Positions 1 through 53,437 are shown, counted from the stretch's first letter. The stretch: DNA of 64,000 nucleotides from an uncultured Acidobacteriota bacterium (GCA_963749265.1 CAVVML010000016.1:73000-136999); one strand, 5' to 3'. The notes: a model not told the origin generated them from the letters alone. Translations and numbers: made by a program.

Positions 1-1894
1 CGGCACGGTGCAGGGAGGCGGCGTGTAGCAGATGCCGAACTTGGCCTTGAGCAGGAAGACCGCCATCTGCTGGCGGAGGGCGTTCTGCGTCGACGCCGTA
101 GAGGCCGCCGCCGACGCCCACGGTGATCTCGTTGCGCACGAGCGTCGTCACGAAGTTGTGGAACTGATGGCCCCCGGGACGTCCAGGAAATCGAGATCCA
201 TCCGTTGGGCAGCGTCCCGCGCTGCCGTCGGTGTTCGTCAGCGTGACGTCGTTGAGACTGCCGGGCGGAAGGTCGGGGTCGTGATCGTCGCGACGTTGTA
301 GTTGTCGACGACGATGCCCGCCGCCGGCACGCCGCCGACGGTCACAGACGCGCCGGGGAGGAAGTGGAAACCCGTCAGCGTGACTCCGGTGACTCTGGCC
401 GGCCTCCCGATCCGGGGTTGATCGCGAGCACGAGCCGCTGGGAGAACTCCGAGGTGTTGCCGTCCGGATCGGTCGCCGTGGCGGTGACTTTCTCGCCCGG
501 CTCGATCGAGACCGGCAGGGTGACGTTGATATCCGCGTTGCCCGAGCCGTCGGTCGTGACCTCGGCCGAGCCGAGGAATGTGCGGCCCTCGAGGAACGCC
601 TGCGGGCGGTCGACGCAGGCCGGGTTCGAGAAGAAGTCGAGATCGTAGGTCGTGCCGGCGGCGCTGTTGAACCGTCCCGTGATCAGCGTCCCTCCGCCGA
701 CCAGCGACGGCGACGGCGGAGGTGATCATGGGGAAGTTCTGCCGGTGGTTCGCTCCGTCGTCGGCGTCGCCGAGATCGTTGAGCGTCGGATTGCAATCGG
801 AAAACGGTCCCGATGTCGATGCCCAGGCACTCCGTGCCCAGCGCCGAATCCTGATGGTTGGCGTAGATGCGATTCCGGCGGATCGGGCACCGCGTTGGGG
901 AACTGGGACTGTAGGGAGAGAGGTAAACTCCCGCGCCTCCGTTGAATGCGATGACGTTGCCCTCGCCGGGGCCGGTCCCGCCGACGATGACGTCGCTCGT
1001 CCAGACGTAGATCCCGGACCGCGGGTTGCCCAGGTTGACGGTGCCGGTGACGTCGGTGCCGATGAAGTTGCCCTGGATGATCGTCGACGACGTCGCATCG
1101 GCCGCGTTGCCGACACTGATCGCTCCGAAATCGCCGCCGGCGATCACGTTGCCGCGGATGGTCAGGTTTCCGGTGGCGGCCGGGGAGATGGCGATGGCCG
1201 TGTTCGGCATCTCGCCGAGCGGGGCGGCTCCTGTCGCGTCGGTGCCGAGGAGATTTCCCTCGATCGCGCCGTTGGCGACCTGGTCGAACCAGACGTGCTG
1301 GGCCGTGTTCCCGGCGATCAGATTCCGGTCGGCGGGCGCCGGGCCTCCGACGGTCAGGCCGGTCCCGAGCTGCCCGAATACGCCGCGCTGGTTGTCCGAA
1401 GCGATCATCCCCGTCACGTCGGTTCCGAAGAAGCAGCCCCGGATGGATACGTTCGGGCCGCCGACCGAAACCGTGTAGTTGAACCCGCCGTTGAAAACGA
1501 GGCCGCGAATGATCGATCCGTCCCCGCTGACCTGGAGAGCCGAGGCTCCCGGGATCGCGGATGCGGAGAGCACGATCTTGAGCGCGGTGTTGAGGGCCCC
1601 TCGGCGTTGGTGTTCGGCGAGGCGCCCGGCTGCGTGTAACCGTCGATCGTGACGGGGCTCGTCAGGAACGGAGGGTCGACGGGGCGTGATCGTGCAGACG
1701 CCCGAGCCGTCGCAGCCGGCGCCCGAGACGTTGAAGGCGATCGTGTCGGCGCCGGCGGCCGTGTTGGCGTCCTCGATGGCCTTCCGGAGCGAGCCCGCAC
1801 CGGAGTCGTTCGTGTTGGTGACCGTGAAGGTCGCGGCCGCGCGGCGCTCGCCGCCTGAGAGACACGACGAGCAGAAGCGAGCGAAGCGGCGCAT
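1..1894 (-). CDS. Secreted CSLREA-like right-handed beta-helix protein with IPT/TIG domain and Cys-rich SLH-like C-terminal repeats, paralog 1 (3' end runs off the window; frame-interrupted)
   Basis: ATG at 1894 preceded by AGGAGG. N-terminus MRRFARFCSS..AAATFTVTNTNDSGAGSLRKAIEDAN, then DTIAFNVSGAGCDGSGVCTI, GN.IGTD..G beta-helix repeats, LGID..ND.GDAD.G.N.QNFP.ITS and GFHFLPGASVTVGGVPA. The pieces lie in different frames (ORFs 683..4147, 1414..1800, 238..1116). Bases 1-300 still encode the RQQMAVFLLK.. repeat, so the gene continues to the left. Confidence 0.7.
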
Positions 1895-1911
1895 GGGAAG
1901 CCTCCTTGCTT

Positions 1912-4147
1912 CTATTGCAAGCCGAACATCTTCACGATGAACGTCGCCATCTGCCCGCGGTTCGCGTTCGTCAGGGGACAGTAGTTGCCGCCGCCGCAGC
2001 CGGCGGTGATGTTGCGGGCGACGAGCTCGTAGATCCAGGTGGCGAAGGGGTGCGAGCACGGAACGTCCGCGAACGTCGCGACGGTGCAGGCCGGCGGCGT
2101 GTAGCCGCTGCCTTCGCAGCGTCTTCAGCAGGAAGACCGCCATCTGCTGGCGGTTGACCGGGTTGGCGGGGCAGAAGTTGCCGCCGCCGCAGCCGGTGGT
2201 GATGCCCTGCGCCACGAGCTCGTTGATCCAGGGAGCGAAGCTCGAGGAGCAGGGCACGTCCGGAAAGACCTGAACGGTGCACGGCGGCGGCACGTAGCAG
2301 ATGCCGTACCTTGCCTTCAGCAGGAAGACCGCCATCTGCTGGCGCAGAGTGTTCTGGTTGACGCCGTAGTTGCCGCCGCCGACGCCCACGGTGATCTCGT
2401 TGCGCACGAGCGTCGTGACGTAATGCATAGAAAATGTGGAGGCTCGTTGACGTCGAGGAAGTCGGCGATCCAGCCGTTGGGCAGGGTGCCGGCGGTGCCG
2501 TCGGTGTTCGTCAGCGTGACGTCGTTGAGGCTGCCGGGCTCGAAGCGACGGTGCGGTGGCCGTGATCTGGTTGTAGCTCGCGACGTTGACCTCGCTCGCC
2601 GGAACCCCGCCCACGGTCACCGTCGCGCCGGGGAGGAAGTGGAAGCCGGAAAGCGTGACGGTCGCTCCGGTCGGCGGCCCGGAGCCCGGCGCCGAGTGGA
2701 GCACGATCCGCTGCGAGAACTCCGAGGTGTTGCCGTCGGGGTCCGTTGCCGTCGCAGTCACCTTTTCGCCGGGAGCGAGAGTGACCGGCAGGACGACGTC
2801 GATCGCCGCGTTGCCGCTGCCGTCGGTCGTCACCTCCTCCGAGTCGAGGTAGGTCCGGCCCTGGAGGAACGCCTGGGGCCGGTCCACGCAGGCCGGGCTC
2901 GAGTAGAAGTCGAGCGTGTACATCGTATCCGCATGGCCGTTGAGGCGGCCGGTGACGGTCGTCGTGCCGCCGCCGACCAGCGAAGACACGACCGAGGTGA
3001 TCATCGGAAAGTTCTGTAACTCGTTCGGCCCCATGTCGGCGTCACCGAGGTCGTTGGACGTGGGCTCGCAGTCGAGGCCGCCTCCGAAGTCGATGCCCAG
3101 GCACCCGTTCGCGTAGATCGAGTTGCCGCGGATCGGATTCGCGAATATGGGGGTAGTGCTGTGGTCGACGTAGACCCCGCCCAGCCCGTTGAACGCGATG
3201 ACGTTGCCCTCGCCCGGGCCGATGCCTCCGACCGCGTTCTGTTGGCCCTGGACTACGACCCCGCGGAACGCGTTGCCCAGGTTCAGCGTGCCGGTGACGT
3301 CGGTGCCGATCCAGTTGCCCTCGACTGTGATGCCGTGCGTCGTTCCGGAGGCGTATCCAACCTGCATGCCGTTCCACTGCGCATCTGCGATGACGTTGCC
3401 GCGGATCACGGTGCCGGGACAGTTGATGCCGACGAAGATGCCGTCGGCGTTGTTCCCCAGCCGAGCGGCTCCCGTGATGTCGGTGCCGATGAGGTTGCCC
3501 TCGATCAGGCTGTCGGCACTGTTGGCCACGAAGATGCCGGAGCCGCTGTTGCCCGAGATGAGATTTCGATCGGCCGGGCTCGGCCCGCCGACGCGAAAAT
3601 TCGGCGTGAGCTGCGCGAAGACGGCTCGGCCGTTCGGAACCGCCACCGTCCCGGAGACGTCCGTCCCGATGAAGCAACCCGCCAGAGTGTCGCCGTCCGA
3701 AACGAAGGACTGGACCGTGTGGTCGAAGCCGCCGTTGATCACCAGGCCTCGCACGGTCGAACCCGCGCCCGTACCGGAAATCGTGATCGCCGGCTGGCCG
3801 AGGTTGGCGCCGGAGAGCACGACCTTCAGCACCGTGTTCAGCGCGCCCTCGGCGTTGGTGTTCGGCGAGGAGCCCGGCTGTGTGTAACCGTCGATGACGA
3901 CCGGGCTCGAGATCGTGGGCAGCACCGACGCCGTCGTGATCGTGCAGACGCCCGAGCCGTCGCAGCCCGCTCCCGAGACGTTGAACGCGATGGTGTCGGG
4001 GCCGGCGGCGGCGTTCGCGTCCGTGATCGCCTGGCGGAGCGATCCGGCGCCCGAATCGTTCGTGTTGGTGACCGTGAAGGTCGCGGCCGCGCAGCCGCGC
4101 CGATTCCTGCCCAGAGACACGAGGAGAAGAGCGAGGACGCGGCGCAT
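1912..4147 (-). CDS. Secreted CSLREA-like beta-helix / IPT / Cys-rich SLH-like repeat protein, paralog 2 (frame-interrupted)
   Basis: ATG at 4147: MRRVLALLLVSLG..AAATFTVTNTNDSGAGSLRQAITDAN. About 560 aa of coherent beta-helix sequence follow in ORF 683..4147, then TATATDPDGNTSEFSQR and GFHFLPGATVTVGGVPA. The C-terminus has QQMAVFLLK..DVPC..FAPWINELVAQGITTGCGGGNFCP repeats. The last repeat is in another frame and ends ..QMATFIVKMFGLQ with a stop at 1912-1914. Confidence 0.75.
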
Positions 4148-4160
4148 CGGAGCCTCCTGT

Positions 4161-6458
4161 CTATTGCAAGCCGAACATCTTCACGACGAACGTCGCCATC
4201 TGCCCGCGGTTCGCGTTCGTCAGGGGACAGTAGTTGCCGCCGCCGCAGCCGGCGGTGATGTTGCGGGCGACGAGCTCGTAGATCCAGGGGGCGAAGGGGT
4301 GCGAGCACGGAACGTCCGCGAAGCTCGCGACGGTGCAGGCCGGCGGCGTATAGCCGCCGCCTTGCAGCGTCTTCAGCAGGAAGACCGCCATCTGCTGGCG
4401 GTTGACCGGGTTGGCGGGGCAGAAGTTGCCGCCGCCGCAGCCGGTGGTGATGCCCTGCGCCACGAGCTCGTTGATCCAGGGAGCGAAGCTCAATGAGCAA
4501 GGCACGTCCGGAAAGACCTGAACCGTGCACGGCGGCGGCACGAAGCAGATGCCGTACCTTGCCTTCAGCAGGAAGACCGCCATCTGCTGGCGCAGCGTGT
4601 TCTGCGTTGACGCCGTAGTTGCCGCCGCCGACGCCGACGGTGATCTCGTTGCGCACGAGCGTCGTCACGAACGGTATAGAAAGTGTGGCGGTCGTTGCAC
4701 GTCCAGGAAGTCGGCGATCCAGCCGTTGGGAAGCGTGCCGGCGGTTCCGTCGGTGTTCGTCAGGGTCATGTCGTTGAGGCTGCCCGGCGGAAGGTTCGGC
4801 GTGGTGAGCGTGACGGTGTTGTAGTCGTTCACGACGACGTTCGTGGCCGCGACGCCGCCCACGGTGACGCCGTCGCGCCCGCGAGAAAGTGGAAGCCGGT
4901 CGAGGTGACGGCATTAGCGGCGCCGGCCGGATTCCCCGACTTGGGCTCGCGACTGATCACGATTCGCTGCGAGAACTCCGACGTATTGCCGTCGGGATCG
5001 GTCGCCGTCGCGGTCACGTTTCCTCCCGGCTCGATCGACGCCGGCACGACCGCGTTGATGTCGCGTTCCCGCTGCCGTCGGTCGTGACCTGCGTGGAGCC
5101 CAGGTAGGTGCTGTCCCTCGCGAAGAGCCTGGGGCCGGCCGATGCACGCCGGGTTCGAGTAGAAGTCGATCGTGTACTCGGGTGTCCGGCGCGCTGTTGA
5201 GCCTGCCGGTGACCGTCGTGCCGCCCCCGCCGAGAGAGGCGCGGCCGAAGTGATGATCGGGAAGTTCTGGAGGCCGTTCGGCCCCGTGTCCCGTCGTCGA
5301 GATCGTTCGCGCGTCAGGCCACCGAGCCGATGCCCTGGCTATGCCGAGATCGATCCCGAGAGTGAGCTACTCGGAGCCGCGCTCTGGTGATTGGAGTGGA
5401 TGGAGTTGCCGCGGATGGTGCACGCTGCGCGCTGTTGAGTGAGAGGTCCAGTTCATGAAACTCCCGCCCCGCCGTTGAAGGCGATGACGTTGGCTTCGCC
5501 CGGGCCGGTCGCCGCCGATCGTGACGTCGTCCGCGTTGAAGATACCGATTCCCGTAGCGGGATTGCCGAGGTCGGCGGTCTCGGTCGACGTCGGTGCCGA
5601 CCAAATTGCCAAAAAGGCGCGGGTCGATGCCGAAGTTGTCGCCGATCTGGACGCCGTGCCGAGGTCCCTCCCGCGATGACGCTGCCCCGAACGACGTTGC
5701 CGCGGCTGCGTGCTCAAGTTGATCGAGATCGTCTGATCGTCGGACCGCCAGGGCCGCCGCGCCCGTGTTGTCCGGTGCCGAGGAGGTTGCCTTCGGATCG
5801 TGGCGTCGGGCACGGGTTGAAGAGCAGGACGTTGGCTGACGTCTGACCCGCGAACGAGATTCCGTTCCGCGGCCGACGGGCCGCCGACGCGTGAGGTCGC
5901 TTGCGCCGGAGAGGCCGTCGGCATAGACCCCGTGGCCGTTTCGGGGACGGGCGTCGTCCCCGACGCGTCGATACCGACGAAGCAACCCTGCACGGTGTTG
6001 CCGTCGGGGCCCAGACCTCACAATCCGTGGGTGAAGCCGCCGTTGACGACGAGGCCCCGCACCGTCGAGCCGGCGGCTTCGGCGTGTTGAATGGAAGCCG
6101 TCTGGAACCTGGGGATGCGACTGCCCGGAGACGACGATCTTGAGGACGGCGTTGATCGCGCCCTTCGCGATGGTGTTCGGCGAGGAGCCCGGCTGCGTGT
6201 AGCCGTCGATGAGGACGGGAGAGATTGATCACCGGCAGCGCTGTCGTCGGCGCGATCGTGCAGACGCCGCTCCCGGAGCAACCCGCGCCGGAGACGTTGA
6301 ACGCGATCGTGTCGAGCCCCGCCGCGGTGTTCGCGTCGTGCGATCGCCTTGCGAAGCGACCCGGCTCCCGAGTCGTTCGTGTTCGTGACCGTGAAGGTCG
6401 CCGCGGACGCGGCCGAAGCCTGGAAGCAGGACCAGCAGGACCGAGGAAGACGTCGCAT
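4161..6458 (-). CDS. Secreted CSLREA-like beta-helix / IPT / Cys-rich SLH-like repeat protein, paralog 3 (heavily frame-interrupted, possibly a real pseudogene)
   Basis: ATG at 6458: MRRLPRSCWSCFQASAASAATFTVTNTNDSGAGSLRKAI. Central beta-helix fragments are scattered over ORFs 5367..5993, 5314..6021 and 5714..7075. The IPT fragment is in 4829..5047 and 4665..4862. ORF 4161..4583 carries an intact C-terminus with two Cys-rich repeats ending MATFVVKMFGLQ. Confidence 0.6.
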
Positions 6459-6468
6459 CGAGTTCTCC

Positions 6469-8731
6469 TCATTGCAGCTCGAACGTCTTCACGAGAAACA
6501 CGGCCATCTGGCCCCGGTTGGCGGTCGCCAGCGGGCAGTAGGTGGTCCCGTTGCCGCAGCCCGCCGTGATGCCGCGCGCCACGAGCTCGTAGATCCACGG
6601 AGCAAACAGCGAGTCGCACGGCACATCCGTGAACGTCGCGACCGTGCAGGCCGGAGGAACGTAGCGCTGCTTCCAGTGTCTTCAGGAGGAAGACGGCCAT
6701 CTGCTGGCGAGTGACTGGATTGGCCGGGCAGAAATTGCCTGATCCGCAGCCGGTCGTAATGCCCTGGGCGACGAGCTCGTTGATCCACGCGGCGAAGATG
6801 TTGGTGCAGGGCACGTCGGGGAAGGCCGGGACGGTGCAGGGTGGCGGCATGTAACAGATGCCGTACTTCGACTTCAGCAGAAAGACCGCCATCTGCTGGC
6901 GCAGCGTTTCCTGCGTCAGCCCGTAGTTGCCTCCGCCGACGCCGGCGGTGATGGCGTTGCGCACGAGCGTCGTGACGAACGGATGGAAGAGCGTGTTCGC
7001 GGGGACATCCAGGAAATCCGCGACCCAGCCGTTGGGAAGCGTCCCCGAGGTCCCGTCCGTGTTCGTGAGGGTCACGGCGCTGACGGTTCCCGGAGGCGGG
7101 CGGGCGCGGTGACCGTCAGCTGCTGGTAGCCGACGACGTTCTCGCCGGTCCCGGCCGCGCCGCCGAAGTCGACTGCGGCTCCCGCGAGGAAGTTGAACCC
7201 GTTGACGGTCACGGCCGTGCCGCCCTCGGCCGGCCCCGAGGCGGGAGAGATCGAGAGGACCATCCGCTGCGAGAACTCCGAGGTGTTGCCGTCCTCGTCC
7301 GTGGCCGTGACGGTCACGCGGCTGCCTTCCGCGATGGCCACGGGCAGGACGACGTTGAAGAGACCGATGCCCGAGCCGTTCGTCGTCACCTCATCCGAGC
7401 CGAGATACTCACGGCCCTCGCGGATACTCCTGGGGCCGGGACAGGCACTCCTCGTCCCGGTAGAAGTCCAGGTCGAACGTCGACGACGCGGTGCTGTCGA
7501 GCTTGCCCGTGACCGTCGTCGTCGAGGCGCCGTAGGTCACCGAGGTGATCACCGGAAAGTTCTGGATCAGGTTGGAGCCGTCGTCCGGGTCGCCCGCGTC
7601 GTTCGGCGTCACGCCGTCGAGCGTGCTGAAGGGCGCGGAAATGTCGATGCCCAGCCCATCGAGCGTCGAGCCGAAGCCTCCGGGCGGCCCGCCGCCGTTG
7701 GAATGGATCGAGTTGCCGCGAATCGGATTGTGCACGCTGGCGGTGTAGCCGTTCACCGCGACGCCCACCCGGTTGTAGGCGATGGTGTTCGCCTCGCCCG
7801 GCCCGAGGCCGCCGATGAGGTTGTCGCTGCTCCCGACACCGATCCCGCCGGTGTTGCCGAGCGGCCCGGTGCCCGCGGCATTGGTGCCGATGAGATTGCC
7901 CTGGATGACCGCTTCCCCGTGCGTCATTAGATACCGGCGCCGAGGTTGCCCGAGAGCAGGTTGCCGGCGCCCTCCTCCGTGCCGCCGATGGTGTTGCGGA
8001 CCATCTGGTTCTGGATGCCGTGGACCGCCGTTGGGCAGCGCGGCGGTCCCGGCGGCGTTGGTTCCGATGTAGTTACCCTGCACAGGTTGTCGGTGGCCGG
8101 GAGGCCGCTGAAGCACGATTCCCGAGCCGCCGTTGCCGGAGATGACGTTCCGGTCGGCCGGAGCCGTTCCGCCGATGACGTTGTTGGGGGAAAACACCGC
8201 GATGCCCGAGCCGTTGGGAACCGCCACGGCGCCGGCCGCGTCGGTCCCGATGAAGTTGCCGGCGATCGTGTGCCCGCCGGTGGAGAGCGAAATCCCGTTG
8301 CCGAGCAGGTTGAATCCGACGAAGCCGCCGATGGCGAGACCCCGAATGGTCGAGCCGTCCGATCCGAAGTTCAGGCAGACGCCGTACCCCGCGCCGCCGC
8401 TGCGCAGCTGGATCTTGAGGACGGCGTCGTTGCCGACGGCGAGAGTGTTGGGGCTCGCGCCGGGCTGGGTGTAGCCGTCGATCGTCATGGCCTGGGCGGC
8501 GCACGGAAGATCCGTCAGGGTCGTGATCGTGCAGACGCCGGAGCCGTCGCATCCGGCGCCGGAGACGTCGAACTCGATCGTATGTGGTCCCGGCGCCGAC
8601 ATTCGCGTCCGAGGATCGCCTGGCGGAGCGAACCGGGGCCGGAGTCGGCGGTGTTCGTCACGGTGAAGGTCGCGGCGGATGCCGTCGGCGGCAAGACACA
8701 GGCCGAGCAGGAAAGCGGCGAAGCGCTTCAT
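6469..8731 (-). CDS. Secreted CSLREA-like beta-helix / IPT / Cys-rich SLH-like repeat protein, paralog 4 (frame-interrupted)
   Basis: ATG at 8731: MKRFAAFLLGLCLAADG.., then HTIEFDVSGAGCDGSGVCTITT, IDGYTQPGASPNT and a long beta-helix in ORF 7409..9358. TATDEDGNTSEFSQR and the IPT part are in 7072..7389. The C-terminal repeats are in 5714..7075, ending ..FLVKTFELQ with a stop at 6469-6471. Confidence 0.7.
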
Positions 8732-8759
8732 CGATCCCCTCCGGAAGTGGAGAGGGCGC

Positions 8760-11029
8760 TCATTGAAGGTCAAAGTTCTGAATGAACACGGCCATCTGGC
8801 CGCGCGTGTTGTTGTTGTCCGGGGCAATAGAGAGGCGGCGAGACCGAGCAGCCGCCGGTGATCTGCTCCGCCGCGAGCTGCTCGATCCAGTCGGCGAACT
8901 GGGACGGGCAGGCGACGTCGTCGAAGACGCCCGCGCAGCCCGGCGGCACGTAGGCTCGAGCCGTGCTGGGCCTTGAGGAGAAACACTGCCATCTGGTCGC
9001 GCCGGACCGGATTCTGCGGGCAGTAGATCCCGCCGCCGCAGCCTCCCGTGATGCCCTCGTCCGCCAGAGCCTCGATCCAGTCGGCGAAGGTCGAGGGGCA
9101 AGGCACGTCTCCGAAAACGCCCGTGCAGCCGGGCGGCACGTAACAGAGGCCGAACTTCCCCTTGAGGAGGAACACCGCCATCTGCTGGCGCAGCGTGGGG
9201 TCCCGACGCCGTAGTTGCCTCCGCCCATGCCGACGGTGATCTGGTTGCGCACGAGCGCCGTGACGAAGAAATAGAACTGCTGCGCCGCCGGCACGTCGAG
9301 GAAGTCGGCGACCCAGCCGTTCGCGAAGGGTCGACTGGCTGCCGTCGGTGTTCGTCACCGTGATGGCGTTGACGGTGCCGGCGGGCAGGGCCGGGGTGGT
9401 CGGCGTCGAGGGAGTTGTAGCTCGAGACCTGCACGTTCGTCGCCGGCTGGCCTCCGATCGTGACGGAGGCTCCGGCGAGGAAGTTGAAGCCGCTGAGCGT
9501 GGTCACGGTGCCGCCGGCCGGGATTCCCGAAGCCGGATTCGCCGAGAGGACGAAGCGCTGCGAGAACTCCGAGGTGTTGCCCTGCGCGTCGGTCGCCGTG
9601 GCCGTGACCGTGTCGCCCGGCTCGAGGGCAACCCCCGGAAGGATCGCGTTGATCGCGGCGTGGCCGCTCCCGTCCGTAGTCACGGTGGTCGTGCCGATGT
9701 AGGTCTGGCCCTCGCGGAATCCCTGCGGGCGGCGCAGGCACGCGGAGACCGCGTAGAGGTCGACGTCGAACTCGGTGTTCGGAGTGCTGTCGAGCGTTCC
9801 CTGGATCGTCGTGCTCTGGCCGGCGGGAGCGTTGGTCACGGCCGAGGAGATGAGCGGGAAGTTCAGGTGCCCGTTGGGCCCGTCGTCTCCGTCCCCGAGG
9901 TCGTTCGCCGTCGGGCCTCCTTGGCCGGGGGAGCCCGGGTCCCCGAGATCGATGCCGAGCGTCGAGAGGCCGAAGTCGTCCCCGAGGCCGTTCGAGTAGA
10001 TCGAGTTGCCGCGGATCGTGTTCTGGGAAGGCTGCGGCGTGTTGTAGATGACGATCACGCCGGCGCCCCGGTTGAAGGCGACGACGTTGCCCTCCCCGGC
10101 GCCGAGACCGCCGACGGTGACCTGGTTGGTGTTGACCCAGATCCCGTGGCGGTTGCCGAGCTCGGCCGTCCCGTCGACGTCCGTGCCCACCCAGTTGCCC
10201 TGCACGGTGACGCCGAAGAGCGAGTCGGAGCCGATCTCTCCGACATCGATCCCCTGGTCGTCGGCGGCCACCACGACGTTCTCGCGTACGACGGTGCCCG
10301 GGCAGTCGATGCCGATGCGCAGCGCCACGGAGCCCGACCCGATCACCGCGGCTCCGGACGCGTCGGTCCCGAACAGGTTCCCCTGCACGAGGCAGTCCGT
10401 GCAGCGCTCGAGCTTGACACCGATTGTCCGTGTTTCCGGAGATCAGGTTACGGTCGGCCGGCGCCGGGCCGCCGACCGTGACGCCGGTGCCGAGGTGCCC
10501 GTAGAAGCCGATCGCACCCCCGACCGCGGCCGCCCCCGCCGCGTCGACGCCGATGAAGCAACCGCGAATGGCGACGTTGTCCACCAGGTTGGAGTTGATC
10601 GCGAGGTTCCACGGCCCGTTGACGACCAGGCCCTCGCACCGTGACGTCGTCGGACGTGATGAGGATGCCGTTGGAGCCGGCGAGGTTGTCGCCCGACACG
10701 ACGATCTTGAGGATCGCGTTGATAGCGCCTTCGGCGTTGGTGTTCGGAGTCGCGCCCGTCTGCGTGAAGCCGTCGATCGTGACGGGATCGTTCAAGGACG
10801 CAAACGGGAGCACGGGCGTGATCGTGCAGACGCCCGTGCCATCACAGCCCGGATCGGCTCCCGGGATCGCGAAAGCGATCGTGTCGGCGCCGGCGTTGTC
10901 GTTGGCATCCACGATCGCCTGGCGAAGCGACCCCGGGCCGGTGTCGTTCGTGTTCGTGACGGTGAACGTCGCGGCCCCGGCCGCCGAGGCAAGGCACAGA
11001 CCGAGCAGGATGGCGCCGGAGCGTTTCAT
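8760..11029 (-). CDS. Secreted CSLREA-like beta-helix / IPT / Cys-rich SLH-like repeat protein, paralog 5 (frame-interrupted)
   Basis: ATG at 11029: MKRSGAILLGLCLASAAGAATFTVTNTNDTGPGSLRQAIVDAN (ORF 10448..11227). Beta-helix, LGIDLGDPGSPGQGGPTANDLGDGDDGPNGHLNFPLISS, TATATDAQGNTSEFSQR and GFNFLAGASVTIGGQPA are in ORF 8760..10388. Cys-rich repeats are in 8770..9294. The protein ends ..GQMAVFIQNFDLQ. Confidence 0.75.
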
Positions 11030-11039
11030 CGATCTCCCG

Positions 11040-13505
11040 TTACGGCAGATTGAACGTCTTCTGAATGAAGACCGCCATCTGGCCGCGCGTGTTGTTCGAG
11101 AGCGGGCAGTAGTTGCGCGCCGCCGCAGCCGCCCGTGATGTTCTCGGCGGCGAGCTGCTCGATCCAGTCGGCGAACTGCGACGGACAGGGGACGTCGTCG
11201 AAGACGCCCGTCGCAGGGCGGCGGCACGTAGGCCGAGCCGTGCTTCGGCCTTCAGGAGGAACACCGCCATCTGGTCGCGCCGCACCGGGTTCTGCGGGCA
11301 GTAGTTGCCGCCGCCGCAGCCTCCCGTGATGCCCTGGGCCGCGAGCGTCCTCGATCCAGTGCGCGAAGGTCGAGGGGCAGGGCACGTCGGGGAAGACCCC
11401 CGTGCAGGCGGGCGGAACGTAGCAGAGGCCGTACTTCGCTTTCAGGAGGAACACGGCCATCTGCTGGCGCAGCGTCGGGCTGATCGACGCCGTACAGCCC
11501 GCCGCCGATGCCCGCCGTGATCGCGTTCGTGACGAGCGTGGTGACGAAGGTGTAGAACTGCTGGGCCGGCGGCACGTCGAGGAAGTCCGCGACGAAGCCC
11601 TTTTCGAGCGTTCCCGTGGTGCCTTCGGTGTTCGTGACCGACGACGTCGTTGAGCGAGCCGGCCGCGAGCGCCGGCGCGACGCCGTGATCTGGTTGAAGT
11701 TCGTGACGACGACCGAGGTCGCGGGCTGACCGCCGATCGTCACCGTGGCCCCGTCCTCGAAGTCCGTTCCGGCGATCGTGACGCCCGTGCCGCCGGCGGA
11801 CGGGCCCGAGGCCGGATTGATCGAGAAGGGCAGCCGCTGGGAGAACTCGGAAGTGCTGCCGGCCGGGTCGGTGGCGGTCAGGCTGACTCGCTCGCCGGGC
11901 TGCGTTGTGAGAGGCACGCTGACGTCGATGACTCCTTCGCCGAATCCGTCCGTCGTGACCTGGCCCGATCCCGAGGTACCTCTTGCCTTCGAGGAAGTCC
12001 TTGGGAAACCGAACGCACGCGTCGTTGGCGAAGACGTCCAGAGTCATAGGTCGTCGAGGGCGTGGAGTGGAGGAGGCCCTGGACGCGCGTGCCGCCTTCC
12101 GGCGACTCGGCGAGCGTGTGCGTCACGGAGCTGAGCACGGGGAAGTTCTGGAGGTCGTTCTGCCCGGTGTCGCCGTCGAGCTCGTCGTTCGGGTTGACAC
12201 CGATCGGGAACGAGGTCGATCCCGAGACCGACGTTGTCGTGGATCGAGTTGCCGCGGATCGTGTTGCCGGTCCCGCCCTCGATGAGGATGCCCCCCTGGT
12301 TCGTCGTGCCGTTGTAGGCGATCGTGTTCGCCTCGCCCGCGCCCGGTTCCGCCGATCTGGACGCCTCCGGCCATGGACGTCGCATGCCCCAGCCGCGGTT
12401 CGGCAGCGGGCAGCGTGCCGGTGACGTCGGTGCCGATCTTGTTGCCCTGGACCAGGGCCCCGTCGGCCGGCTGCCGGAGCCGATGACGACGCCGTCGCCG
12501 AGGTTGCCGGAGATCGACGTTGTCGAGGAGTCGTTGCCGACCGTGTTGATGCTGATCGCCTGGACGCCGTTGCCGAGCGGCAGAGTGCCGGTCAGGTCGG
12601 TGCCGATGTAGTTGCCCTGCACCACGATGTCCGTGACGCAGGCGCCGCAGAAACTGTTCGAGATGCGGATGCCCATGAAGGTGTTGCCGGAGATGACGTT
12701 GCGCGCCCCGGCCGTCGCGCCGCCGATCGTCACGTTCGTCACGCCGAAGCAGAGGCTGACGCCGGTCTGGTTGCCGGGCCGGCGCGCCGGCGGGACTCGC
12801 GGTCCCGCTCGCGTCCGGGCCGATGAAGTTGCCCTGGATCGACGTGGCCCGATGCCGCCGGCCGATGTAGCAGCCGAAGCCGATCTGCGAACCCGGAGTT
12901 CCCCGAGATGACGTTGCGCTGTGCGGGGAGCGTGCCGCCGATCTGGACGTTCGTGGATCCTCCATCGATCTCGACTCCGTAGGTGTTGGAGAGCGCGGTC
13001 GTCCGGTCGGGTCGGTTCCGATGAAGCAGCCGCTCGATCGTGCCCCGTCGCGCCGTTGACCTGGATCGCGGCGCCCGGCGCGCGGTTGATGACGAGGCCC
13101 TCGACGATGAACCCGCCGTGGCTCGCGATCCGCAGCACGCCGGCGCCGATGCCGCCGCCCGAGTTGGTGCCGTCGATCTCGATCAGGTGCACGGAGTTGT
13201 CGGGCAGCCCCGGGCCGTTGGTGTTCGGGCTCGAGCCGGGCTGGCGTGAAGCCCAGGATCTCGACGGCGTCCGTGATCGTCGGGAAGCGGCGTCGCGAGC
13301 GTGATCGTGTGGACGCCCGCGCCCGGCGATGTCGAAGGTGATCTGGTCGAAGCCCGGGCGTGCGCGTTGGCGTCGAGGATCGCCTGCGCGGAGCGAGCCG
13401 GCGCCCGAGTCGTTGGTGTTCGTGACCGTGAAGCTGGCGGCGGCGAGCGGGCCGGCCGGCAGGAGCGCACAGGACGACGAGGCCGAGCCGCCGGGCATGT
13501 CTCAT
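11040..13505 (-). CDS. Secreted CSLREA-like beta-helix / IPT / Cys-rich SLH-like repeat protein, paralog 6 (most divergent; frame-interrupted)
   Basis: ATG at 13505, then a frame change to ..LLPAGPLAAASFTVTNTNDSGAGSLR (ORFs 12123..13505 and 12044..13498). It lacks the CDGSGVC loop (FDIAGPGVHTITLATPLPTITD). Beta-helix repeats include GNYIGTDLTGTLPLGN. LTATDPAGSTSEFSQR and the IPT part are in 11252..11917. Cys-rich repeats are in 11026..11460. The protein ends ..GQMAVFIQKTFNLP. Confidence 0.7.
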
Positions 13506-13542: not shown

Positions 13543-13914
13543 TCAGGGCCGGTAAGTGGCCCGGTTCTCCGGTCCCTCCCAGACGGTGACCTCGACGACC
13601 CGGCCCCAGCCGAGCGCGCCCGAGGACTCCAGCCTCTCGGAAAAGTATCGGGCCAGGTTCTCGGCCGAGGTGTTCCGGCCGCGGAAGGCCGGATGGTCGT
13701 TGATGTACTTGTAGTCGAACTCTTTGGCGATGGTCTCGAGAGCCTGTTTGGCCGGCACGAAGTCCACGGCGAGGTCGTACTGCTGGAGCTTCTCCGACTC
13801 GAGGACCGCCTCGACCCGGTAGGAGTGGCCGTGCAGGGGCTCGGGCCCGCCGACGTAGTCGATCAGGTTGTGCGCGGCCTCGAAGCGGGCCGTGACCGTG
13901 ACGCGATAGCTCAT
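13543..13914 (-). CDS. queD: 6-carboxy-5,6,7,8-tetrahydropterin synthase (QueD / PTPS family)
   Basis: Intact ORF 13543..13950. MSYRVTVTARFEAAHNL..HGHSYRVEAVLE..DLAVDFVPAKQAL..INDHPAF..NTSAENLARY is typical QueD/PTPS. I prefer the ATG at 13914, which overlaps the upstream gene's stop (ATGA). The alternative ATG is at 13950. Confidence 0.8.
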   Translation of the reverse strand: MSYRVTVTARFEAAHNLIDYVGGPEPLHGHSYRVEAVLESEKLQQYDLAVDFVPAKQALETIAKEFDYKYINDHPAFRGRNTSAENLARYFSERLESSGALGWGRVVEVTVWEGPENRATYRP

Positions 13915-16526
13915 CCGCTGGAGGAGGGTGGCCTCGCGGGTGACCGACATCGCCGGCCTGCTCCGCGGGCGGAATCGCGAGCAGCGCTTCGAGGACCTTC
14001 TTCGCCGTGGCCGTGTCTCCCCGCCGCCTGGTCGAGGTTGACCTCGAAGGTCAGGCTCGCGCCGGAGGCGTCGGCTTCGAGCGCGATCGCGCGGAGCGCC
14101 GGCATCGCTTCGCGCCAGCCGTTCGGCGAGGGCGTCGCGCGGCGCGCTCGACGTGCTCGTCGCGAGTCGAGGCGCACCGAGTAGCGCGCGCCCTTGACGG
14201 CCTTCGCGAGCGAGGGCTCTCCGATGCCGAGAGCTCGCGCACCTCGAGGACCGCCACGCCGGCGGGCAGCTTGGCGTTGATGCGCTCGGCCGCGTCGGGG
14301 GGGAAGGCCGCGCGGCCGTCGACGTCGAAGACCTCGTGGCGGCTCTCGAGGCCGAGCGCGAGCGCGGGGCCCATCGAGAGCTTCATGTGGGGATTGAAGC
14401 CCTCCGTGTAGCGCGCCGGCAGTCCCGCCGCGCGGATCGCGCGCTCGAGGACGTCCATCGTGTTGCGGTGCGAGAGCAGGCGCGCGTCGCCCGTCTTCGA
14501 GAACGCGATGCGGTGGCGGACGACGCGTGTCGCCCTGGCCGCCGCGCACGCGCGACGCGGCGGGAAGGTCCGGCATGGCCTTCTCGCCGGTACGCCGCGC
14601 CCTTCGCGACGTCGCGGTACGCGGCGGGATCGCTCGCCGGCGCGGCCGCTGCGTCGAACGCCGGGAGCGCGCCGGCTCATGGACTTCGCGAGGACCGTGT
14701 CCTCGCCGTTGCCCGGCACGCCGCAGGCGTAGCAGTGGCCCCACTTGCAGTCCTCGGTCCGCATCTCCTTCTTCGCCTTGATGAGCTCGATCTGGAGCCA
14801 GCGCTTCTTGATCGACACGTCGAGGACGTCCCAGGGCAGGATCTCGTCGAGGTCGTAGGCGCGCAGGTACGAGTCCTTCGGGATGCCCTCGGCCTCGAAC
14901 GCCTTCATCCAGAGGTCGTGGCGGAAGTGCTCGGTCCAGCCGTCGAACCGCACGCCCGACTTCCACGCGGTGTGGAGGATGCGCGCCGACCCGGCGGTCG
15001 CCGCGGGAGAGCACGCACTCGATCTCGGCCTCGCGCGGCTCGTGCCACTTCATCTTCGCGCCGCGGATGCGCCGGAACCGGTCCTTCAGGTACGCGAGCT
15101 TGCGCTCGAGCGTCTCGACGCCGTCGAACGGCGCCCACTGGAAGGGCGTCCAGGACTTCGGCACGAAGGAGCCCGACCGAGACGTTGACGTTCTTCCGGC
15201 CGTGCTTGCGCCCCTGGGCGAGGATGCCCTCGACGAGCGTCACGAGCTCGTCGAGGTCGGCGTCCGTCTCGGTCGGCAGCCCGATCATCGTGTAGACCTT
15301 GATGAGGTCCCAGCCGCGCGCGAACGCGACGTCGGCCGCGGCGATCATGTCGGCGTTGGTGAACGTCTTGTTGATGACGCGGCGCAGGCGGTCCGAGCCC
15401 GTCTCGGGCGCGAAGGTGAAGCCGGACTTGCGGACCTCCGAGACGGCGTCGGCGAGGCCCACCGAGAACGCCTCGGCCCGCAGCGACGGAAGCGAGATCG
15501 AGACCCGCTGGTCGGCGAGCTGCGGCGCGAGGCACTTCACCAGCGGCTCGATCTGCGAGTAGTCGGCGGTCGAGAGCGAGAGCAGGCCCACCTCGCTCCA
15601 GCCCGACTCGGCGATGAACTTCTTCGTCATGTCCGCCACGTCGGCGGGATCGAGCTCGCGCACCGGGCGGTACCAGTAGCCCGCCTGGCAGAAGCGGCAG
15701 CCCTGCGTGCAGCCGCGCATGACCTCGAGGCCCAGGCGGTCCTGGACGATCTCGACCGAGGGCACCATGGGCTTGTCGGGGTAGTAGTCGGGCTTCAGGA
15801 CCGGCACCCAGGTGCGGCGCGCCCGCTCGGGGGCGCGCGGGTCGTTGCGCTCGATCGCCGCGATGCGCCCGTCCTCTTTGTATGTGACGTCGTAGAACGA
15901 CGGCACGTAGATGCCGTCGACCGCGGCGAGCGCGGCGAGGAGGTCGCGGCGCGTTGAGCCCGCGGGCCCGCGCCTCGCGATACGCGTCGAGGAACACCGG
16001 CAGCGCCTCCTCGGCGTCGCCGACGAGGAACGCGTCGAAGAAGTCGGCGATCGGCTCGGGGTTCGCCGTGCAGGGCCCGCCGCCCAGAACGATCGGATCG
16101 GCCTCGCGGCGGTCGCGCTGCCAGACCGGCAGCCCCGCGAGGTCCAGCATGTTGAGGATGTTCGAGTAGTTGAGCTCCGCCTGGAGCGAGAAGCCCAGGA
16201 CGTCGAAGTCGGCGACCGGCGCGAACGACTCCGTCGAGAAGAGCGGGATCCCGTGCTCGCGCATCCGCGTCTCGAGATCCACCCACGGCGCGTACATCCG
16301 CTCGCAGGCGAAGTCCTCCCGGCGGTTGACGATCTCGTAGAGGATCTTCAGCCCCGTGTGGCTCATCCCGATCTCGTAGGTGTCGGGGAAGGCCAGCGCC
16401 AGCGTCACCGAGGCCTGCGAGAGGTCCTTCCGCGTGACGTTGCGCTCGAGGCCGACGTAGCGGCCCGGCTTCTCGACGAACGGCAGGTGCGGGTCGAGGA
16501 GGGGGCGCAGGGACGCGGTATCGCAT
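13911..16526 (-). CDS. B12-binding-like radical SAM protein (TIGR03960 type) fused to a TIGR03936/DUF2344-like C-terminal domain (frame-interrupted)
   Basis: LPFVEKPGRYVGLERNV..TLALAFPDTYEIGMSHTGLKILY (ORF 15086..16408). Radical SAM motif MRGCTQGCRFCQAGYWYRP (ORF 14905..15906). SFVPKSWTPFQWAPF.. is in 13911..15164. The DUF2344-like part RIAFSKTGDARLLSHRNTMDVLERAIRAAGLPARYTEGFNPHMKLSMGPALALG is in 14051..14953. Both ends are uncertain. The ATG at 16526 needs an early frame change. Confidence 0.7.
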
Positions 16527-16708
16527 GGAACCGGAGATTCTACCTTTGCCGGCCGGGCTTCTGTCGGGACCCGGCCTCCCCGCGAGTGGCTGCCGAACAG
16601 GCTACGCCAGCTCTACTGCAGGTTGGATGCATGCGACGTCGAAAAGCGCGACACGTCACCTTGTGCGGAGGCAGTGCATTTCCAACCGGTCGGGGAGCTC
16701 CACTGCAA

Positions 16709-17855
16709 TCAGAGGTACTTGAACCCGCTCCCGGTATTGAAGAGGACGACGCGCTCGCGAGGGCGAGCTTCCCGGCCTGCGCCAGCAGCTTCGCCGCGGC
16801 CCAGGTAGCGCCTCCCTCCGGAGAGGCGAAGATGCCCTCGGCCGCCCCGATCTCGTCGCAGGCCGGCGCATCTCGTCGTCGGTCACGGCGATCGCGGCGC
16901 CGCCCGACGCCCGGACGAAGCGCAGGATCAGGTAGTCCGCAAAGGGTTTGGGCACTCGCAGGCCCGAGGCATAGGTCCGGGCGTTCGGGAACTTTTCCGA
17001 CGTCTCACGGCCCTCCGCGAAGGCTTTCGGGATCGGAGCGCAGCCCTCGGCCTGGACGACGAACATCCGTGGGCGCCGGGAACCGATCCAGCCCATCTCC
17101 TCCATCTCGTCGAAGGCCTTCCACATCCCGATCAAACCGGTTCCGCCGCCGGTGGGGTAGAGGATCGCGTCGGGGAGTTCCCAGCCGAGGTCTTCGGCGA
17201 GCTCGTAGCCCAGAGTCTTCTTGCCCTCGACGCGGAAGGGCTCCTTGAGGGTCGAGACGTCGTGCCACCCTTCCTTCGCCGCGCGCTCGGCGACGAGGCG
17301 GCCGCAGTCGTCGATCAGGCCAGGCACGAGCGTGACCTTCGCGCCGTAGCGCTCGCACTCGATCCGGAAGACGGGCGGCGTGTCCTCGGGCATGAAGACG
17401 TGGCACTCCATCCCCGCTTTCGCGGCATACGCCGCGGCCGCGCCGCCGGCGTTGCCCGCGGTCGGCAGCGCGATCTTCGCGTAGCCGAGCTCCTTCGCTT
17501 TCGAGACCGCGGCCGAGAGCCCGCGCGCCTTGAACGAGCCGGTCGGATTGCCGGACTCGTCCTTGATGAAGAGCGCGGCGAACCCGTCGCGCTGGCCGAG
17601 GCGATGCGCAGCGACGAGCGGCGTGCCGCCCTCGCCGAGCGAGACGACGTTCTCCGGATCCTCGACGGGCATGACCTCGTGCCAGCGCCAGATCGTGCGG
17701 GGACGATCCGCGGCCGCGATCGAATCGCGCTCGAGCCGCAGGTGGTATCGCGCGAAGAGCGCGCCGCCGCACGAGGCGCAGACGTTGATGCGGCGGTCGC
17801 GCTCGTACGTCGCACCGCAGCGTGTGCAGATCAGGTGCGCGAGCGAGGAGAACAT
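16709..17855 (-). CDS. thrC: Threonine synthase (two frame changes near the 3' end)
   Basis: ORF 16656..17855: N-terminal Cys-rich stretch (CTRCG..CASCGG), PLP-lysine region ..DESGNPTGSFKARG.., PTAGNAGGAAAAYAA, YPTGGGTGLIGMWKAF. Adding one base to the run at 16761-16763 gives ..KLAPRERVVLFNTGSGFKYL with a stop at 16709-16711. Confidence 0.85.
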
Positions 17856-39373: not shown

Positions 39374-39380
39374 TCGGTGC

Positions 39381-53410: not shown

Positions 53411-53437
53411 AGACGGACGTGCGAGTGACTTCTCCTC

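What the first reader, a model, noticed from the sequence alone, without database searches (positions are those of the whole stretch)
1..13505. Six head-to-tail paralogs of a secreted beta-helix / IPT / Cys-rich-SLH-like protein occupy 13.5 kb
Six genes on the minus strand share one architecture. It runs: signal peptide, A(A/T/S)FTVTNTNDSGAGSLR.AI..AN (CSLREA-like), a DTIAF..GAGCDGSGVCTI loop (absent in paralog 6), IDGYTQPG.SPNT, many GN.IGTD..G parallel beta-helix turns, LGID..ND.GD.D.G.N..NFP.I(T/S)S, TATATD..GNTSEFSQR, an IPT/TIG-like G(F)xFL.GA.V..GG..A module, then two or three roughly 60-aa Cys-rich repeats. Stop-to-start spacers are only 10-28 nt (1895-1911, 4148-4160, 6459-6468, 8732-8759, 11030-11039). 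The array therefore reads as one transcription unit. It also follows thrC, the radical SAM gene and queD on the same strand. N- and C-terminal modules are strongly conserved between copies, while the central beta-helix cores are clearly different. That pattern is what you expect from a diversified surface-adhesin or S-layer-associated family kept together by recombination. I know of no described function for such an array, and the tandem layout would allow cassette-type exchange.
Basis: partly seen in the sequence, partly recalled or inferred. Interest (0 to 1): 0.7.

Follow-up and report, generated by a model that had tools for sequence, protein, structure and literature searches.

The report
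Tandem SLH-anchored variable beta-helix protein genes
An uncultured soil Acidobacteriota (Thermoanaerobaculia) genome carries a head-to-tail array of at least six genes for secreted, cell-wall-anchored proteins. Their beta-helix "head" has one fast-evolving face while the wall anchor is kept uniform by gene conversion, which suggests an undescribed repertoire of envelope recognition or adhesion proteins.

Summary
Copy 1 is cut by the window edge.

None of the six is an intact ORF as assembled: each needs 4 to about 30 frameshift corrections. The neighbouring radical-SAM gene needs 12-13, and corrected copies keep 93-99% of family-invariant residues. So the frameshifts are assembly noise, not gene decay.

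The architecture is signal peptide, Cys-less CSLREA-homologous cap, right-handed beta-helix, Asp-rich linker, Ig sandwich, IPT/TIG and three SLH repeats. Pfam, an AlphaFold model (pLDDT 86) and Foldseek support it.

The mosaic is real: cap 71%, helix 41% and SLH 65-75% identity. Hypervariable residues form one stripe on the helix. Copy 2 and its orthologue differ by 13 non-synonymous and 0 synonymous codons across the head (p=8e-6). The 3' SLH tract of copies 2 and 3 has undergone recent gene conversion.

Such arrays, with up to 18 or more copies, are common in Thermoanaerobaculia MAGs. The family has no curated model and no literature.

The most likely function is wall-anchored recognition or adhesion. 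Silent-cassette switching is not supported.

The parts
11040..13505 (-). Copy 6 (c6). It lies nearest queD, is the most divergent copy, lacks the Cys loop and has one extra beta-helix coil. It needs about 17 frameshift corrections.
   Evidence: Frameshift-aware alignment, three-frame reading of the N-terminus and the alignment of corrected proteins.
8760..11029 (-). Copy 5 (c5). It needs 7 frameshift corrections. Its head has no orthologue in L001; the best match is P0108, with 622 of 754 residues identical.
   Evidence: A Pfam TIG hit lies within it.
6469..8731 (-). Copy 4 (c4). It needs 10 frameshift corrections. It is the orthologue of L001 gene 5459-7720, with a 92% identical core, dS 0.25 and dN/dS 0.19.
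4161..6458 (-). Copy 3 (c3). It needs about 30 frameshift corrections and has 2 in-frame stops after correction. It is the orthologue of L001 gene 7729-9990 and still keeps 120 of 122 family-invariant residues.
1912..4147 (-). Copy 2 (c2), the best-preserved copy, needing 4 single-base insertion corrections at 2539, 2442, 2420 and 2110. It is 95% identical to P0001. Domain coordinates: signal 4147-4085, cap 4084-3848, beta-helix 3847-3083, Asp-rich linker 3082-3005, Ig sandwich 3004-2708, IPT/TIG 2707-2461, SLH1 2460-2267, SLH2 2266-2074, SLH3 2073-1915.
1..1894 (-). Copy 1 (c1), cut by the window start at about residue 633, within the SLH1-SLH2 junction. It needs about 10 frameshift corrections.
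1912..2416 (-). Gene-conversion tract in c2, running from most of SLH1 to the stop codon. It is 97.0% identical to the c3 tract over 506 columns, against 57-63% in the cores.
4161..4665 (-). The partner gene-conversion tract in c3.
2573..3913 (-). c2 head segment (residues 79-525). Compared with the L001 orthologue it has 0 synonymous and 13 non-synonymous codon differences, all at family-hypervariable positions.
13543..13950 (-). queD-like 6-pyruvoyl-tetrahydropterin synthase, 37 nt upstream of c6. It is a conserved landmark next to these arrays in at least 10 species.
13903..16550 (-). Radical SAM gene of about 870 aa with a B12-binding-type N-terminal domain. It is split over three frames in the window and needs 12-13 frameshift corrections. 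I used it as the control for assembly noise.
16656..17855 (-).

Best explanation
The region is a tandem multigene family of about 750-aa envelope proteins from a Thermoanaerobaculia (Acidobacteriota) chromosome.

Each gene is translated on its own, from its own Shine-Dalgarno-like site (weak upstream of c6) and ATG. Each protein is exported by a Sec-type signal peptide. It is then held on the cell wall by a C-terminal trio of SLH repeats, which probably bind a pyruvylated wall-associated polymer through the conserved Arg of each repeat. Disulfides probably stiffen SLH2 and SLH3.

An IPT/TIG domain and an Ig sandwich act as a stalk. The stalk carries a capped right-handed beta-helix head. One sheet of that head, one strand per coil, is hypervariable and is the working surface, so I read each paralogue as recognising a different ligand, most probably a glycan or another surface.

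The family evolves in three ways. Tandem duplication, loss and reordering of copies change the array. Positive selection acts on the variable stripe. Gene conversion homogenises the anchor-coding 3' ends of neighbouring copies, which fits all copies having to fit the same wall ligand.

Shown here: the architecture, the mosaic, the stripe, the conversion tract, the non-synonymous excess and the lineage-wide spread of such arrays. Inferred: export, wall anchoring, binding function, cellular location and co-transcription.
For: Six copies and their spacers. Domains: Pfam Beta_helix, TIG and SLH; AlphaFold2 model with pLDDT 86 and pTM 0.80.

Foldseek: the SLH trio matches Sap and SpaA SLH at TM 0.74-0.84. 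The head matches beta-helix proteins (8wm1, tailspikes, AlgG, AlgE4). The middle domains match the Bap Ig domain and Met/plexin IPT domains.

The Arg of Sap's TRAE motif aligns with the family's invariant R601, R665 and R729.

A Shine-Dalgarno-like site plus ATG precedes each copy (weak for c6), and there are no terminator-like sites in the spacers.

Mosaic. Stripe: 49 of 255 helix residues have entropy of at least 2.5 bits, against 2-5% of residues in other domains, and they recur once per coil in the same strand.

Positive selection: c2 against its orthologue shows 13 non-synonymous and 0 synonymous differences in residues 79-525, against 12 and 27 in the flanks. Fisher p=8e-6, and all 13 sites are hypervariable family-wide.

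Concerted evolution: third-position identity in the 3' tract is 96.5% for c2-c3, 85-90% for orthologues and 61-67% for other paralogues.

The genes are under constraint: 93-99% of 122 invariant residues are retained.

The whole head cassette occurs 4-12 times in cis in giant proteins of Verrucomicrobiota and others. That layout suits a binding or structural module better than a catalytic one.

Arrays next to queD occur in at least 10 species with different copy content and order, and one contig has at least 18 copies in 57 kb.
Against: There are no expression, localisation or binding data. The organism has an outer membrane (TonB-dependent receptor), and nothing shows how an SLH-anchored protein without a beta-barrel would reach the cell surface, so it may act in the periplasm. 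I did not look for CsaB or a pyruvylated polymer in this genome.

The nearest structural neighbours of the head are mostly carbohydrate-active enzymes. Several charged residues are conserved (D193, R194, D283, R340), so catalysis is not excluded.

Both sequences in the dN/dS comparison come from noisy assemblies. High entropy alone could reflect weak constraint rather than selection.
Confidence: 0.55

Rival explanations
1. The paralogues are wall-anchored carbohydrate-active enzymes (lyase, hydrolase or epimerase of the beta-helix CASH type). The variable stripe is a substrate groove, and each copy handles a different polysaccharide, for foraging or for remodelling the cell's own exopolysaccharide.
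For: Foldseek neighbours of the head are tailspike depolymerases, the alginate epimerases AlgG and AlgE4, VexL and an enzyme named 'DHS dehydratase' (8wm1, E 1e-15). There are weak Pfam NosD/Beta_helix hits. Conserved D193-R194, GTD motifs and R340 are present. SLH-anchored multi-modular enzymes are known, for example ChiW (PMC5132251, found).
Against: No Pfam or NCBIfam enzyme family matches, and the helix has no sequence relative among solved structures. TM-scores to enzymes are low (0.2-0.5), which indicates only a shared fold. The conserved residues sit in the repeated structural motifs (GNxIGTD, RGN). The same cassette is repeated up to a dozen times within single giant proteins, which is unusual for catalytic modules.
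Confidence: 0.25
2. The array is an antigenic or phase-variation system, or an S-layer gene set. One copy is expressed as the main surface-coat protein and the others serve as donors for cassette-type replacement of the variable head.
For: There are SLH anchors, conserved ends flanking a variable core, and tandem layout. Gene conversion between neighbours is demonstrated. Copy content and order differ between species.
Against: All copies are full-length genes with their own start codon, ribosome-binding site and signal peptide, so none is a silent truncated cassette. The detected conversion tract covers the conserved anchor, not the head. Heads are stably orthologous between genomes: the c2 core is 97% identical to its orthologue and the c4 core 92%. 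Whether Acidobacteriota have S-layers at all is described as ambiguous (bioRxiv 10.1101/2024.05.28.596244).
Confidence: 0.1
3. The array is a set of decaying pseudogenes, or an assembly artefact of a repeat region with wrong copy number or chimeric copies.
For: Every copy is frameshifted as assembled, and c3 has about 13 indels per kb plus 2 stops. The assembly is noisy throughout.
Against: The adjacent radical SAM gene shows the same indel density (4.9 per kb), and frame switches occur about every 350 nt across the whole window. Corrected proteins retain 93-99% of invariant residues, and orthologue pairs give dN/dS of 0.19-0.49. An independently assembled relative shows the same order for c4-c3-c2 at about 90% identity over 7.7 kb. 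The heads are only 35-50% identical, so collapse or chimerism is unlikely.
Confidence: 0.05

Closest known systems
SLH-anchored surface proteins of Bacillota (B. anthracis Sap/EA1 and BSL proteins; Paenibacillus SpaA and ChiW)
   Same: They share three tandem SLH repeats. The predicted fold superposes on Sap and SpaA SLH at TM 0.74-0.84, the ligand-contacting Arg is conserved in each repeat, and a variable functional region is attached to a common wall anchor.
   Different: Here the SLH trio is C-terminal and Cys-rich, with GCGGGN(F/Y)CP and GICYVPPPC motifs, and the motif is xRQQ/xRGQ rather than TRAE. The host is a diderm Acidobacteriota. The functional part is a CSLREA-type beta-helix cassette. 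The genes form long tandem arrays.
Giant multi-cassette 'right-handed parallel beta-helix repeat-containing' or CSLREA-domain proteins of Verrucomicrobiota and other phyla (e.g. P0121, P0168, P0258)
   Same: They carry the same roughly 390-460-aa cassette (cap, beta-helix, ND..D.D.G.N..QNFP linker, Ig sandwich ending TATATD..GNTSEFS) at 38-48% identity. In P0258 the cap is a true CSLREA domain, scoring 28.5 bits against a cutoff of 25.
   Different: In those proteins the cassettes are joined in cis, 4-12 per polypeptide, and I detected no SLH trio in the few I scanned (P0258 ends in a CarboxypepD_reg domain). Here there is one cassette per gene, each with its own TIG plus SLH anchor. The cap has lost the Cys and fails the CSLREA model. 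These giant proteins are also uncharacterised.
Clostridioides difficile cwp gene cluster (from general knowledge, not tested here)
   Same: It is a paralogous family of wall-anchored proteins. Each has three anchor repeats plus a variable functional domain, and many are clustered on the chromosome.
   Different: The anchor is CWB2, not SLH. The functional domains are unrelated to each other rather than variants of one fold. It does not form regular 2.3-kb head-to-tail arrays.
Phage tailspikes and alginate C5-epimerases (AlgG, AlgE4)
   Same: They share the right-handed parallel beta-helix fold.
   Different: The resemblance is at fold level only: TM 0.15-0.5, 9-14% identity, no sequence-level relationship and no shared catalytic motif identified.

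Membership tests
SLH domain trio (PF00395) | Match to the SLH profile above the curated cutoff | tested here: met
   P0001 scores 54.4 bits against a cutoff of 20.8, and the window ORFs score 39.4 and 28.8 bits.
SLH domain trio (PF00395) | Three repeats folding into the three-pronged SLH module | tested here: met
   The AlphaFold2 model superposes on Sap 3pyw and 6bt4 at TM 0.82-0.84 and on SpaA at 0.74-0.81. This is a prediction, not an experiment.
SLH domain trio (PF00395) | Conserved TRAE-type motif whose Arg contacts the pyruvylated polymer | tested here: inconclusive
   The Arg is invariant in all three repeats (R601, R665, R729) and aligns with Sap's TRAE Arg. The motif reads xRQQ/xRGQ, not TRAE.
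SLH domain trio (PF00395) | Pyruvylated wall polymer and CsaB pyruvyltransferase present in the organism | not tested
   I scanned only a selection of the window's ORFs and found no such gene. A whole-genome search was not possible, and the literature search found nothing.
CSLREA domain (TIGR04214) | Match to the CSLREA_Nterm model; Cys-Ser-Leu-Arg-Glu-Ala motif | tested here: not met
   No hit appeared even at E<=10 on the caps of c2 and c6 or on full proteins; the motif is GSLRQA. The homologous cap of relative P0258 does pass, so the cap is a divergent homologue but not a member by the curated model.
Right-handed parallel beta-helix (PF13229, PbH1/CASH type) | Profile match and a coiled three-sheet beta-helix | tested here: met
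   The c2 ORF scores 44.6 bits against a cutoff of 25.9. P0001 scores 24.8, just below it. The model shows regular short strands through residues 100-355, and beta-helix proteins top the Foldseek lists.
IPT/TIG domain (PF01833) | Profile match above cutoff | tested here: met
   c5 scores 25.2 bits, P0005 31.8 and P0114 35.5, against a cutoff of 20.9. Foldseek finds Met, plexin and EBF IPT domains.
Silent-cassette antigenic variation systems (vls, pilS, msp2 type) | One expression site plus promoterless, truncated donor cassettes | tested here: not met
   All copies are full-length and have a Shine-Dalgarno-like site (weak upstream of c6), an ATG and a signal peptide.
Silent-cassette antigenic variation systems (vls, pilS, msp2 type) | Segmental conversion of the variable region | tested here: not met
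   The only clear tract lies in the conserved SLH-coding 3' end. I found no paralogue donor for the clustered head changes.
Beta-helix polysaccharide lyases, hydrolases or epimerases | Match to an enzyme family profile and its catalytic residues | tested here: not met
   Only the generic Beta_helix and NosD profiles match, and there is no sequence relative in the PDB. Activity itself cannot be tested with these tools.
S-layer (lattice-forming) protein | Forms a two-dimensional lattice and is the dominant surface protein | not testable with these tools
   No expression or lattice data exist. S-layers in Acidobacteriota are described as ambiguous.
Diversity-generating retroelement target | Adenine-specific substitutions, with a template repeat and reverse transcriptase nearby | tested here: not met
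   The substitutions between c2 and its orthologue involve all base types. No second copy of the variable segments exists in the array. I saw no reverse transcriptase among the window ORFs I scanned, but that scan was not exhaustive.

The most novel reading that the evidence does not exclude
The arrays encode a genomic repertoire of recognition proteins: dozens of wall-anchored beta-helix heads per genome, whose single hypervariable face is under diversifying selection. The repertoire would be used for discriminating partners, prey, kin or phages (or as phage decoys). It would be a bacterial counterpart of the variable-receptor gene arrays of eukaryotes, in a major uncultured soil lineage. It would also be the first indication of an SLH-anchored envelope layer in Acidobacteriota.
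Probability: 0.15. Interest if true: 0.75.

Novelty: new variant of a known kind. Interest (0 to 1): 0.45.

Why it matters
Thermoanaerobaculia are abundant, almost entirely uncultured soil and sediment bacteria whose cell surface is unknown. They devote tens of kilobases per genome to these arrays: at least 18 copies in 57 kb in one MAG, and more than 7,000 family members in public data. Yet the proteins carry only generic names.

This analysis gives the family a testable model: an SLH wall anchor kept uniform by gene conversion, a stalk, and a beta-helix head with one positively selected face. It links the head to a cassette found in about 37,000 protein clusters, including giant proteins of other phyla. 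It also raises the question of what SLH domains bind in a diderm of the Gracilicutes type.

There is a practical point too. Automatic gene calling on noisy long-read MAGs shatters these genes, so their abundance is likely under-reported.

Tried and rejected
- The curated CSLREA model gave no hit on the family caps. I kept it only as a homology by transitivity through P0258.
- A PDB sequence search with the head alone gave nothing meaningful.
- The literature on 8WM1 and 'DHS dehydratase' gave nothing, so the top structural neighbour remains uninterpreted.
- Literature searches on Thermoanaerobaculia or Acidobacteria with SLH or CsaB turned up nothing relevant.
- The viral structure library gave only generic beta-helix similarity at TM 0.3 or below.
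- I rejected a DGR-type mechanism, because the substitutions are not adenine-specific and there is no template copy.
- I rejected micro-conversion from paralogues as the source of the clustered head changes for the sequences in hand.
- I rejected homopolymer-type errors as the cause of the frameshifts. Most are single inserted bases in non-homopolymer context.
- I rejected pseudogenisation specific to the array.
- The promoter and terminator scans were uninformative, with counts at shuffle level.
- No tRNA genes are present in the window.


Full report
**1. What is in the sequence**

The window has 66-74% G+C. A plain ORF list for 1-13505 is a tangle of overlapping frames, and codon-position G+C shows the coding frame changing every few hundred bases. 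Translating 4183-683 shows why. Real coding sequence (signal peptide, ATFTVTNTNDSGAGSLR and so on) alternates with Arg-rich out-of-frame stretches, and it runs in one apparent frame into the next gene.

I wrote a frameshift-aware protein-to-DNA aligner and guided it with the closest intact homologues. This resolves six minus-strand genes:
- c6 13505-11040
- c5 11029-8760
- c4 8731-6469
- c3 6458-4161
- c2 4147-1912
- c1 1894-1

c1 is cut by the window start at about residue 633. tblastn finds no other copy in the window.

**2. The frameshifts are assembly noise**

The copies need the following numbers of frameshift corrections: c2 4, c5 7, c4 10, c1 about 10, c6 about 17 and c3 about 30. Most are single inserted bases outside homopolymers. 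Three results show this is not decay of the array.

- A frame tracker finds frame switches about every 350 nt across all 64 kb.
- The adjacent radical-SAM gene is split over three frames. Against intact orthologues from short-read MAGs it needs 12-13 corrections in 2.65 kb, or 4.9 per kb. The array ranges from 1.8 to 13 per kb.
- The corrected proteins keep 113-121 of 122 family-invariant residues (103 of 104 covered in c1). Orthologue comparisons give dN/dS of 0.19-0.49.

c3 stands out, with about 13 indels per kb and two residual stops. I cannot tell whether that reflects locally poor consensus or a very recent inactivation.

**3. Architecture**

- Pfam finds Beta_helix, IPT/TIG and SLH.
- NCBIfam has no model that reaches its cutoff.
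- An AlphaFold2 model of P0001 (the intact orthologue, 95% identical to c2), built with 52 homologues, has pLDDT 86 and pTM 0.80.

The model's domains, in P0001 numbering, are:
- an N-terminal signal helix;
- a cap (residues 22-100);
- a regular beta-helix (101-355);
- a low-confidence Asp-rich segment (NDLGDADxGPNxxQNFP, 356-381), which looks like a Ca-binding linker (my inference);
- an Ig-type sandwich ending in TATATDxxGNTSEFS (382-480);
- an IPT/TIG domain (481-562);
- three helical SLH repeats (563-743).

Foldseek against the PDB matches the SLH trio to B. anthracis Sap (TM 0.82-0.84) and to SpaA. It matches the sandwich to the Bap C region and the TIG domain to Met/plexin IPT domains. 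The head matches beta-helix proteins: 8wm1 'DHS dehydratase', tailspikes, AlgG, AlgE4 and VexL. By sequence, only the Bap Ig domain and Sap SLH are detectable.

Sap's TRAE arginine aligns with an invariant Arg in each repeat. SLH2, SLH3 and the inter-repeat linkers carry conserved cysteines; SLH1 does not. Copy 6 lacks the GAGCDGSGVCTI loop and has one extra coil.

It does hit, above its cutoff, the equivalent cap of a homologous protein. So 'CSLREA-like' is correct as homology but not as membership.

**4. The mosaic and the stripe**

Among the six copies, mean identity by module is:
- cap 71%
- helix core 41%
- linker 55%
- sandwich 56%
- TIG 58%
- SLH1, SLH2 and SLH3 75%, 73% and 66%

The same profile holds across 52 family members: 0.77 bits in the cap, 1.47 in the helix and 0.77 in SLH.

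Positions with at least 2.5 bits of entropy make up 49 of 255 helix residues, against 2-5% in the other domains. They recur once per coil in the same strand (the xGIxVx strand after each GN turn), while the GNxIGTD and IRGN strands stay conserved. The head therefore carries one hypervariable face.

**5. Selection on the head**

c2 and its orthologue in L001 differ at 13 codons between residues 79 and 525 (window 3913-2573). All 13 are non-synonymous. They fall at 143/146, 177/179, 202-209, 321, 456 and 496/497.

The rest of the gene has 27 synonymous and 12 non-synonymous differences, excluding the signal peptide. Fisher's exact test gives p=8e-6. The 13 sites have a mean family entropy of 2.84 bits, against 1.30 for the region. 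No paralogue in either locus could have donated the clustered changes.

Two conclusions follow. First, the head segment has no synonymous divergence, although the neighbouring gene c4 shows dS of about 0.25. The two lineages therefore shared this segment very recently, by recombination or transfer. Second, it has since changed only at stripe positions, which is what diversifying selection predicts. The caveat is that both assemblies are noisy. Random errors, however, would not be confined to hypervariable, non-synonymous sites.

**6. Recombination at the anchor**

c2 and c3 are 57-63% identical in their cores but 97.0% identical over the last 506 columns (window 1912-2416 and 4161-4665).

Third-codon-position identity in the last 520 nt is:
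- 96.5% for c2-c3
- 89.7% for the equivalent pair in L001
- 85-90% for orthologues
- 61-67% for other paralogue pairs

Neighbouring anchors are therefore homogenised by gene conversion, and this continued after the two genomes diverged. c5 and c6 show a weaker version of the same pattern. However, it acts on the conserved anchor rather than shuffling the heads.

**7. Spread and dynamics**

The family has more than 7,248 hits at E<=1e-5 among the 8,000 candidates scored. Members are typically 740-760 aa and often occur several to a contig. Their names are limited to 'hypothetical' or 'IPT/TIG domain-containing protein [Thermoanaerobaculia bacterium]'.

In one-genome-per-species data, all 80 hits kept (60 distinct loci) are Acidobacteriota or Thermoanaerobaculia MAGs. 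Same-strand arrays with a 2.25-2.5-kb period are the rule. One contig has at least 18 copies in 57 kb.

The radical SAM-queD block precedes such an array in at least 10 species. The closest relative, L001, has at least 10 copies after queD. Only c4, c3 and c2 have clear orthologues there, at 92%, 70% and 97% core identity. Counterparts of c6, c5 and c1 turn up in other genomes and in a different order. The arrays therefore evolve by gain, loss and rearrangement of copies.

**8. The head cassette elsewhere**

An exhaustive search with the c2 head finds 36,963 representative clusters at E<=1e-3 and 9,388 at E<=1e-30. The top hits are proteins of 1,300-7,400 aa that contain the whole cassette (cap, helix, QNFP linker, sandwich) 4-12 times, with a 390-460-aa period. 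They are named only 'right-handed parallel beta-helix repeat-containing protein', for example in Verrucomicrobiota. Repetition of the module in cis favours a binding or structural role over catalysis.

**9. Expression signals**

Five of the six copies are preceded by a GGAG/AGGAGG-type site 5-7 nt before the ATG; the sequence upstream of c6 is weaker. No terminator-like site lies in a spacer, although the scan as a whole is at background level. Co-transcription with queD, which ends 37 nt upstream of c6, is plausible but untested.

**10. Interpretation**

The best reading (confidence 0.55) is a repertoire of Sec-exported, SLH-anchored envelope proteins whose hypervariable beta-helix face recognises diverse ligands.

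The rivals are:
- wall-anchored carbohydrate-active enzymes (0.25);
- an S-layer or antigenic-variation cassette system (0.1), weakened because all copies are complete genes and the conversion tract covers the anchor;
- pseudogenes or an assembly artefact (0.05).

Location is the main open point. The window encodes a TonB-dependent receptor, so the cell has an outer membrane, and an SLH-bound protein with no barrel could be periplasmic.

**11. Novelty**

All the domains are known, and paralogous families of wall-anchored proteins are a known kind. I found no curated model or paper describing the following, and a 2024 survey calls S-layers in Acidobacteriota ambiguous:
- this particular combination, a Cys-less CSLREA-type cassette plus TIG plus a Cys-rich C-terminal SLH trio in a diderm;
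- the long regular arrays;
- the single selected face;
- the anchor-specific concerted evolution.

I rate it a new variant of a known kind, of moderate interest.

Noticed in passing
window 1-64000: The whole window carries frequent indels, mostly single-base insertions. The coding frame switches about every 350 nt in housekeeping genes too, so automatic gene calls on this contig will be fragmented. Many related MAGs are long-read assemblies, and L001 shows fragmented gene calls as well.
   Followed up: yes
window 4876-6115 (core of c3): Indel density here is about 13 per kb, several times the window average, and two in-frame stops remain after correction. The frame tracker calls this stretch non-coding. 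Even so, c3 keeps 120 of 122 invariant residues. Possible causes are a locally poor consensus, a mix of strain variants, or very recent inactivation.
   Followed up: partly
window 4138-4090 (c2 signal peptide, residues 4-20): Every codon but one differs from the 95%-identical orthologue, mostly by 2-3 bases, and the hydrophobic core reads VSLGRNRRGC. This looks like a short out-of-frame stretch between two compensating indels rather than real divergence.
   Followed up: no
window 13543-16550; loci L002, L003, L005, L006, L010, L011, L014, L018, L057: A radical SAM gene of about 870 aa (Radical_SAM_N2, B12-binding-like and Radical_SAM domains) followed by queD sits immediately upstream of an array in at least 10 species, at 84-91% nucleotide identity. 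L006 and L011 have a second queD-like match inside or beside the array. I do not know whether this link is functional or only positional.
   Followed up: partly
PDB 8wm1_A (structural hit to the model of P0001): The best structural neighbour of the head (E 1e-15, TM 0.54 on the target) is deposited as 'DHS dehydratase'. I found no paper on it in the library and cannot say what it does.
   Followed up: partly
proteins P0121-P0270 (e.g. P0168, caps at 43/829/1220/1613): Giant proteins of 1,300-7,400 aa in Verrucomicrobiota and other phyla consist of 4-12 copies of the same cap, beta-helix and Ig cassette. The same module is therefore arrayed either within one polypeptide or as separate tandem genes, depending on the lineage.
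   Followed up: partly
window 2573-3913 compared with L001 10235-11575: There is no synonymous divergence over 1.34 kb between two genomes whose neighbouring genes differ by dS of about 0.25. This implies a recent exchange of this head segment between the lineages.
   Followed up: partly
window 38824-41742 (+), 55938-59174 (-), 50540-54375 (+): The surrounding genes are ordinary chromosomal ones: a TonB-dependent receptor with a CarboxypepD_reg domain, a large M1-family peptidase, and a xanthine-dehydrogenase-type molybdoenzyme. Elsewhere in the window there are also an OpuAC-type binding protein, a YchF GTPase and a halogenase-like flavoprotein.
   Followed up: no
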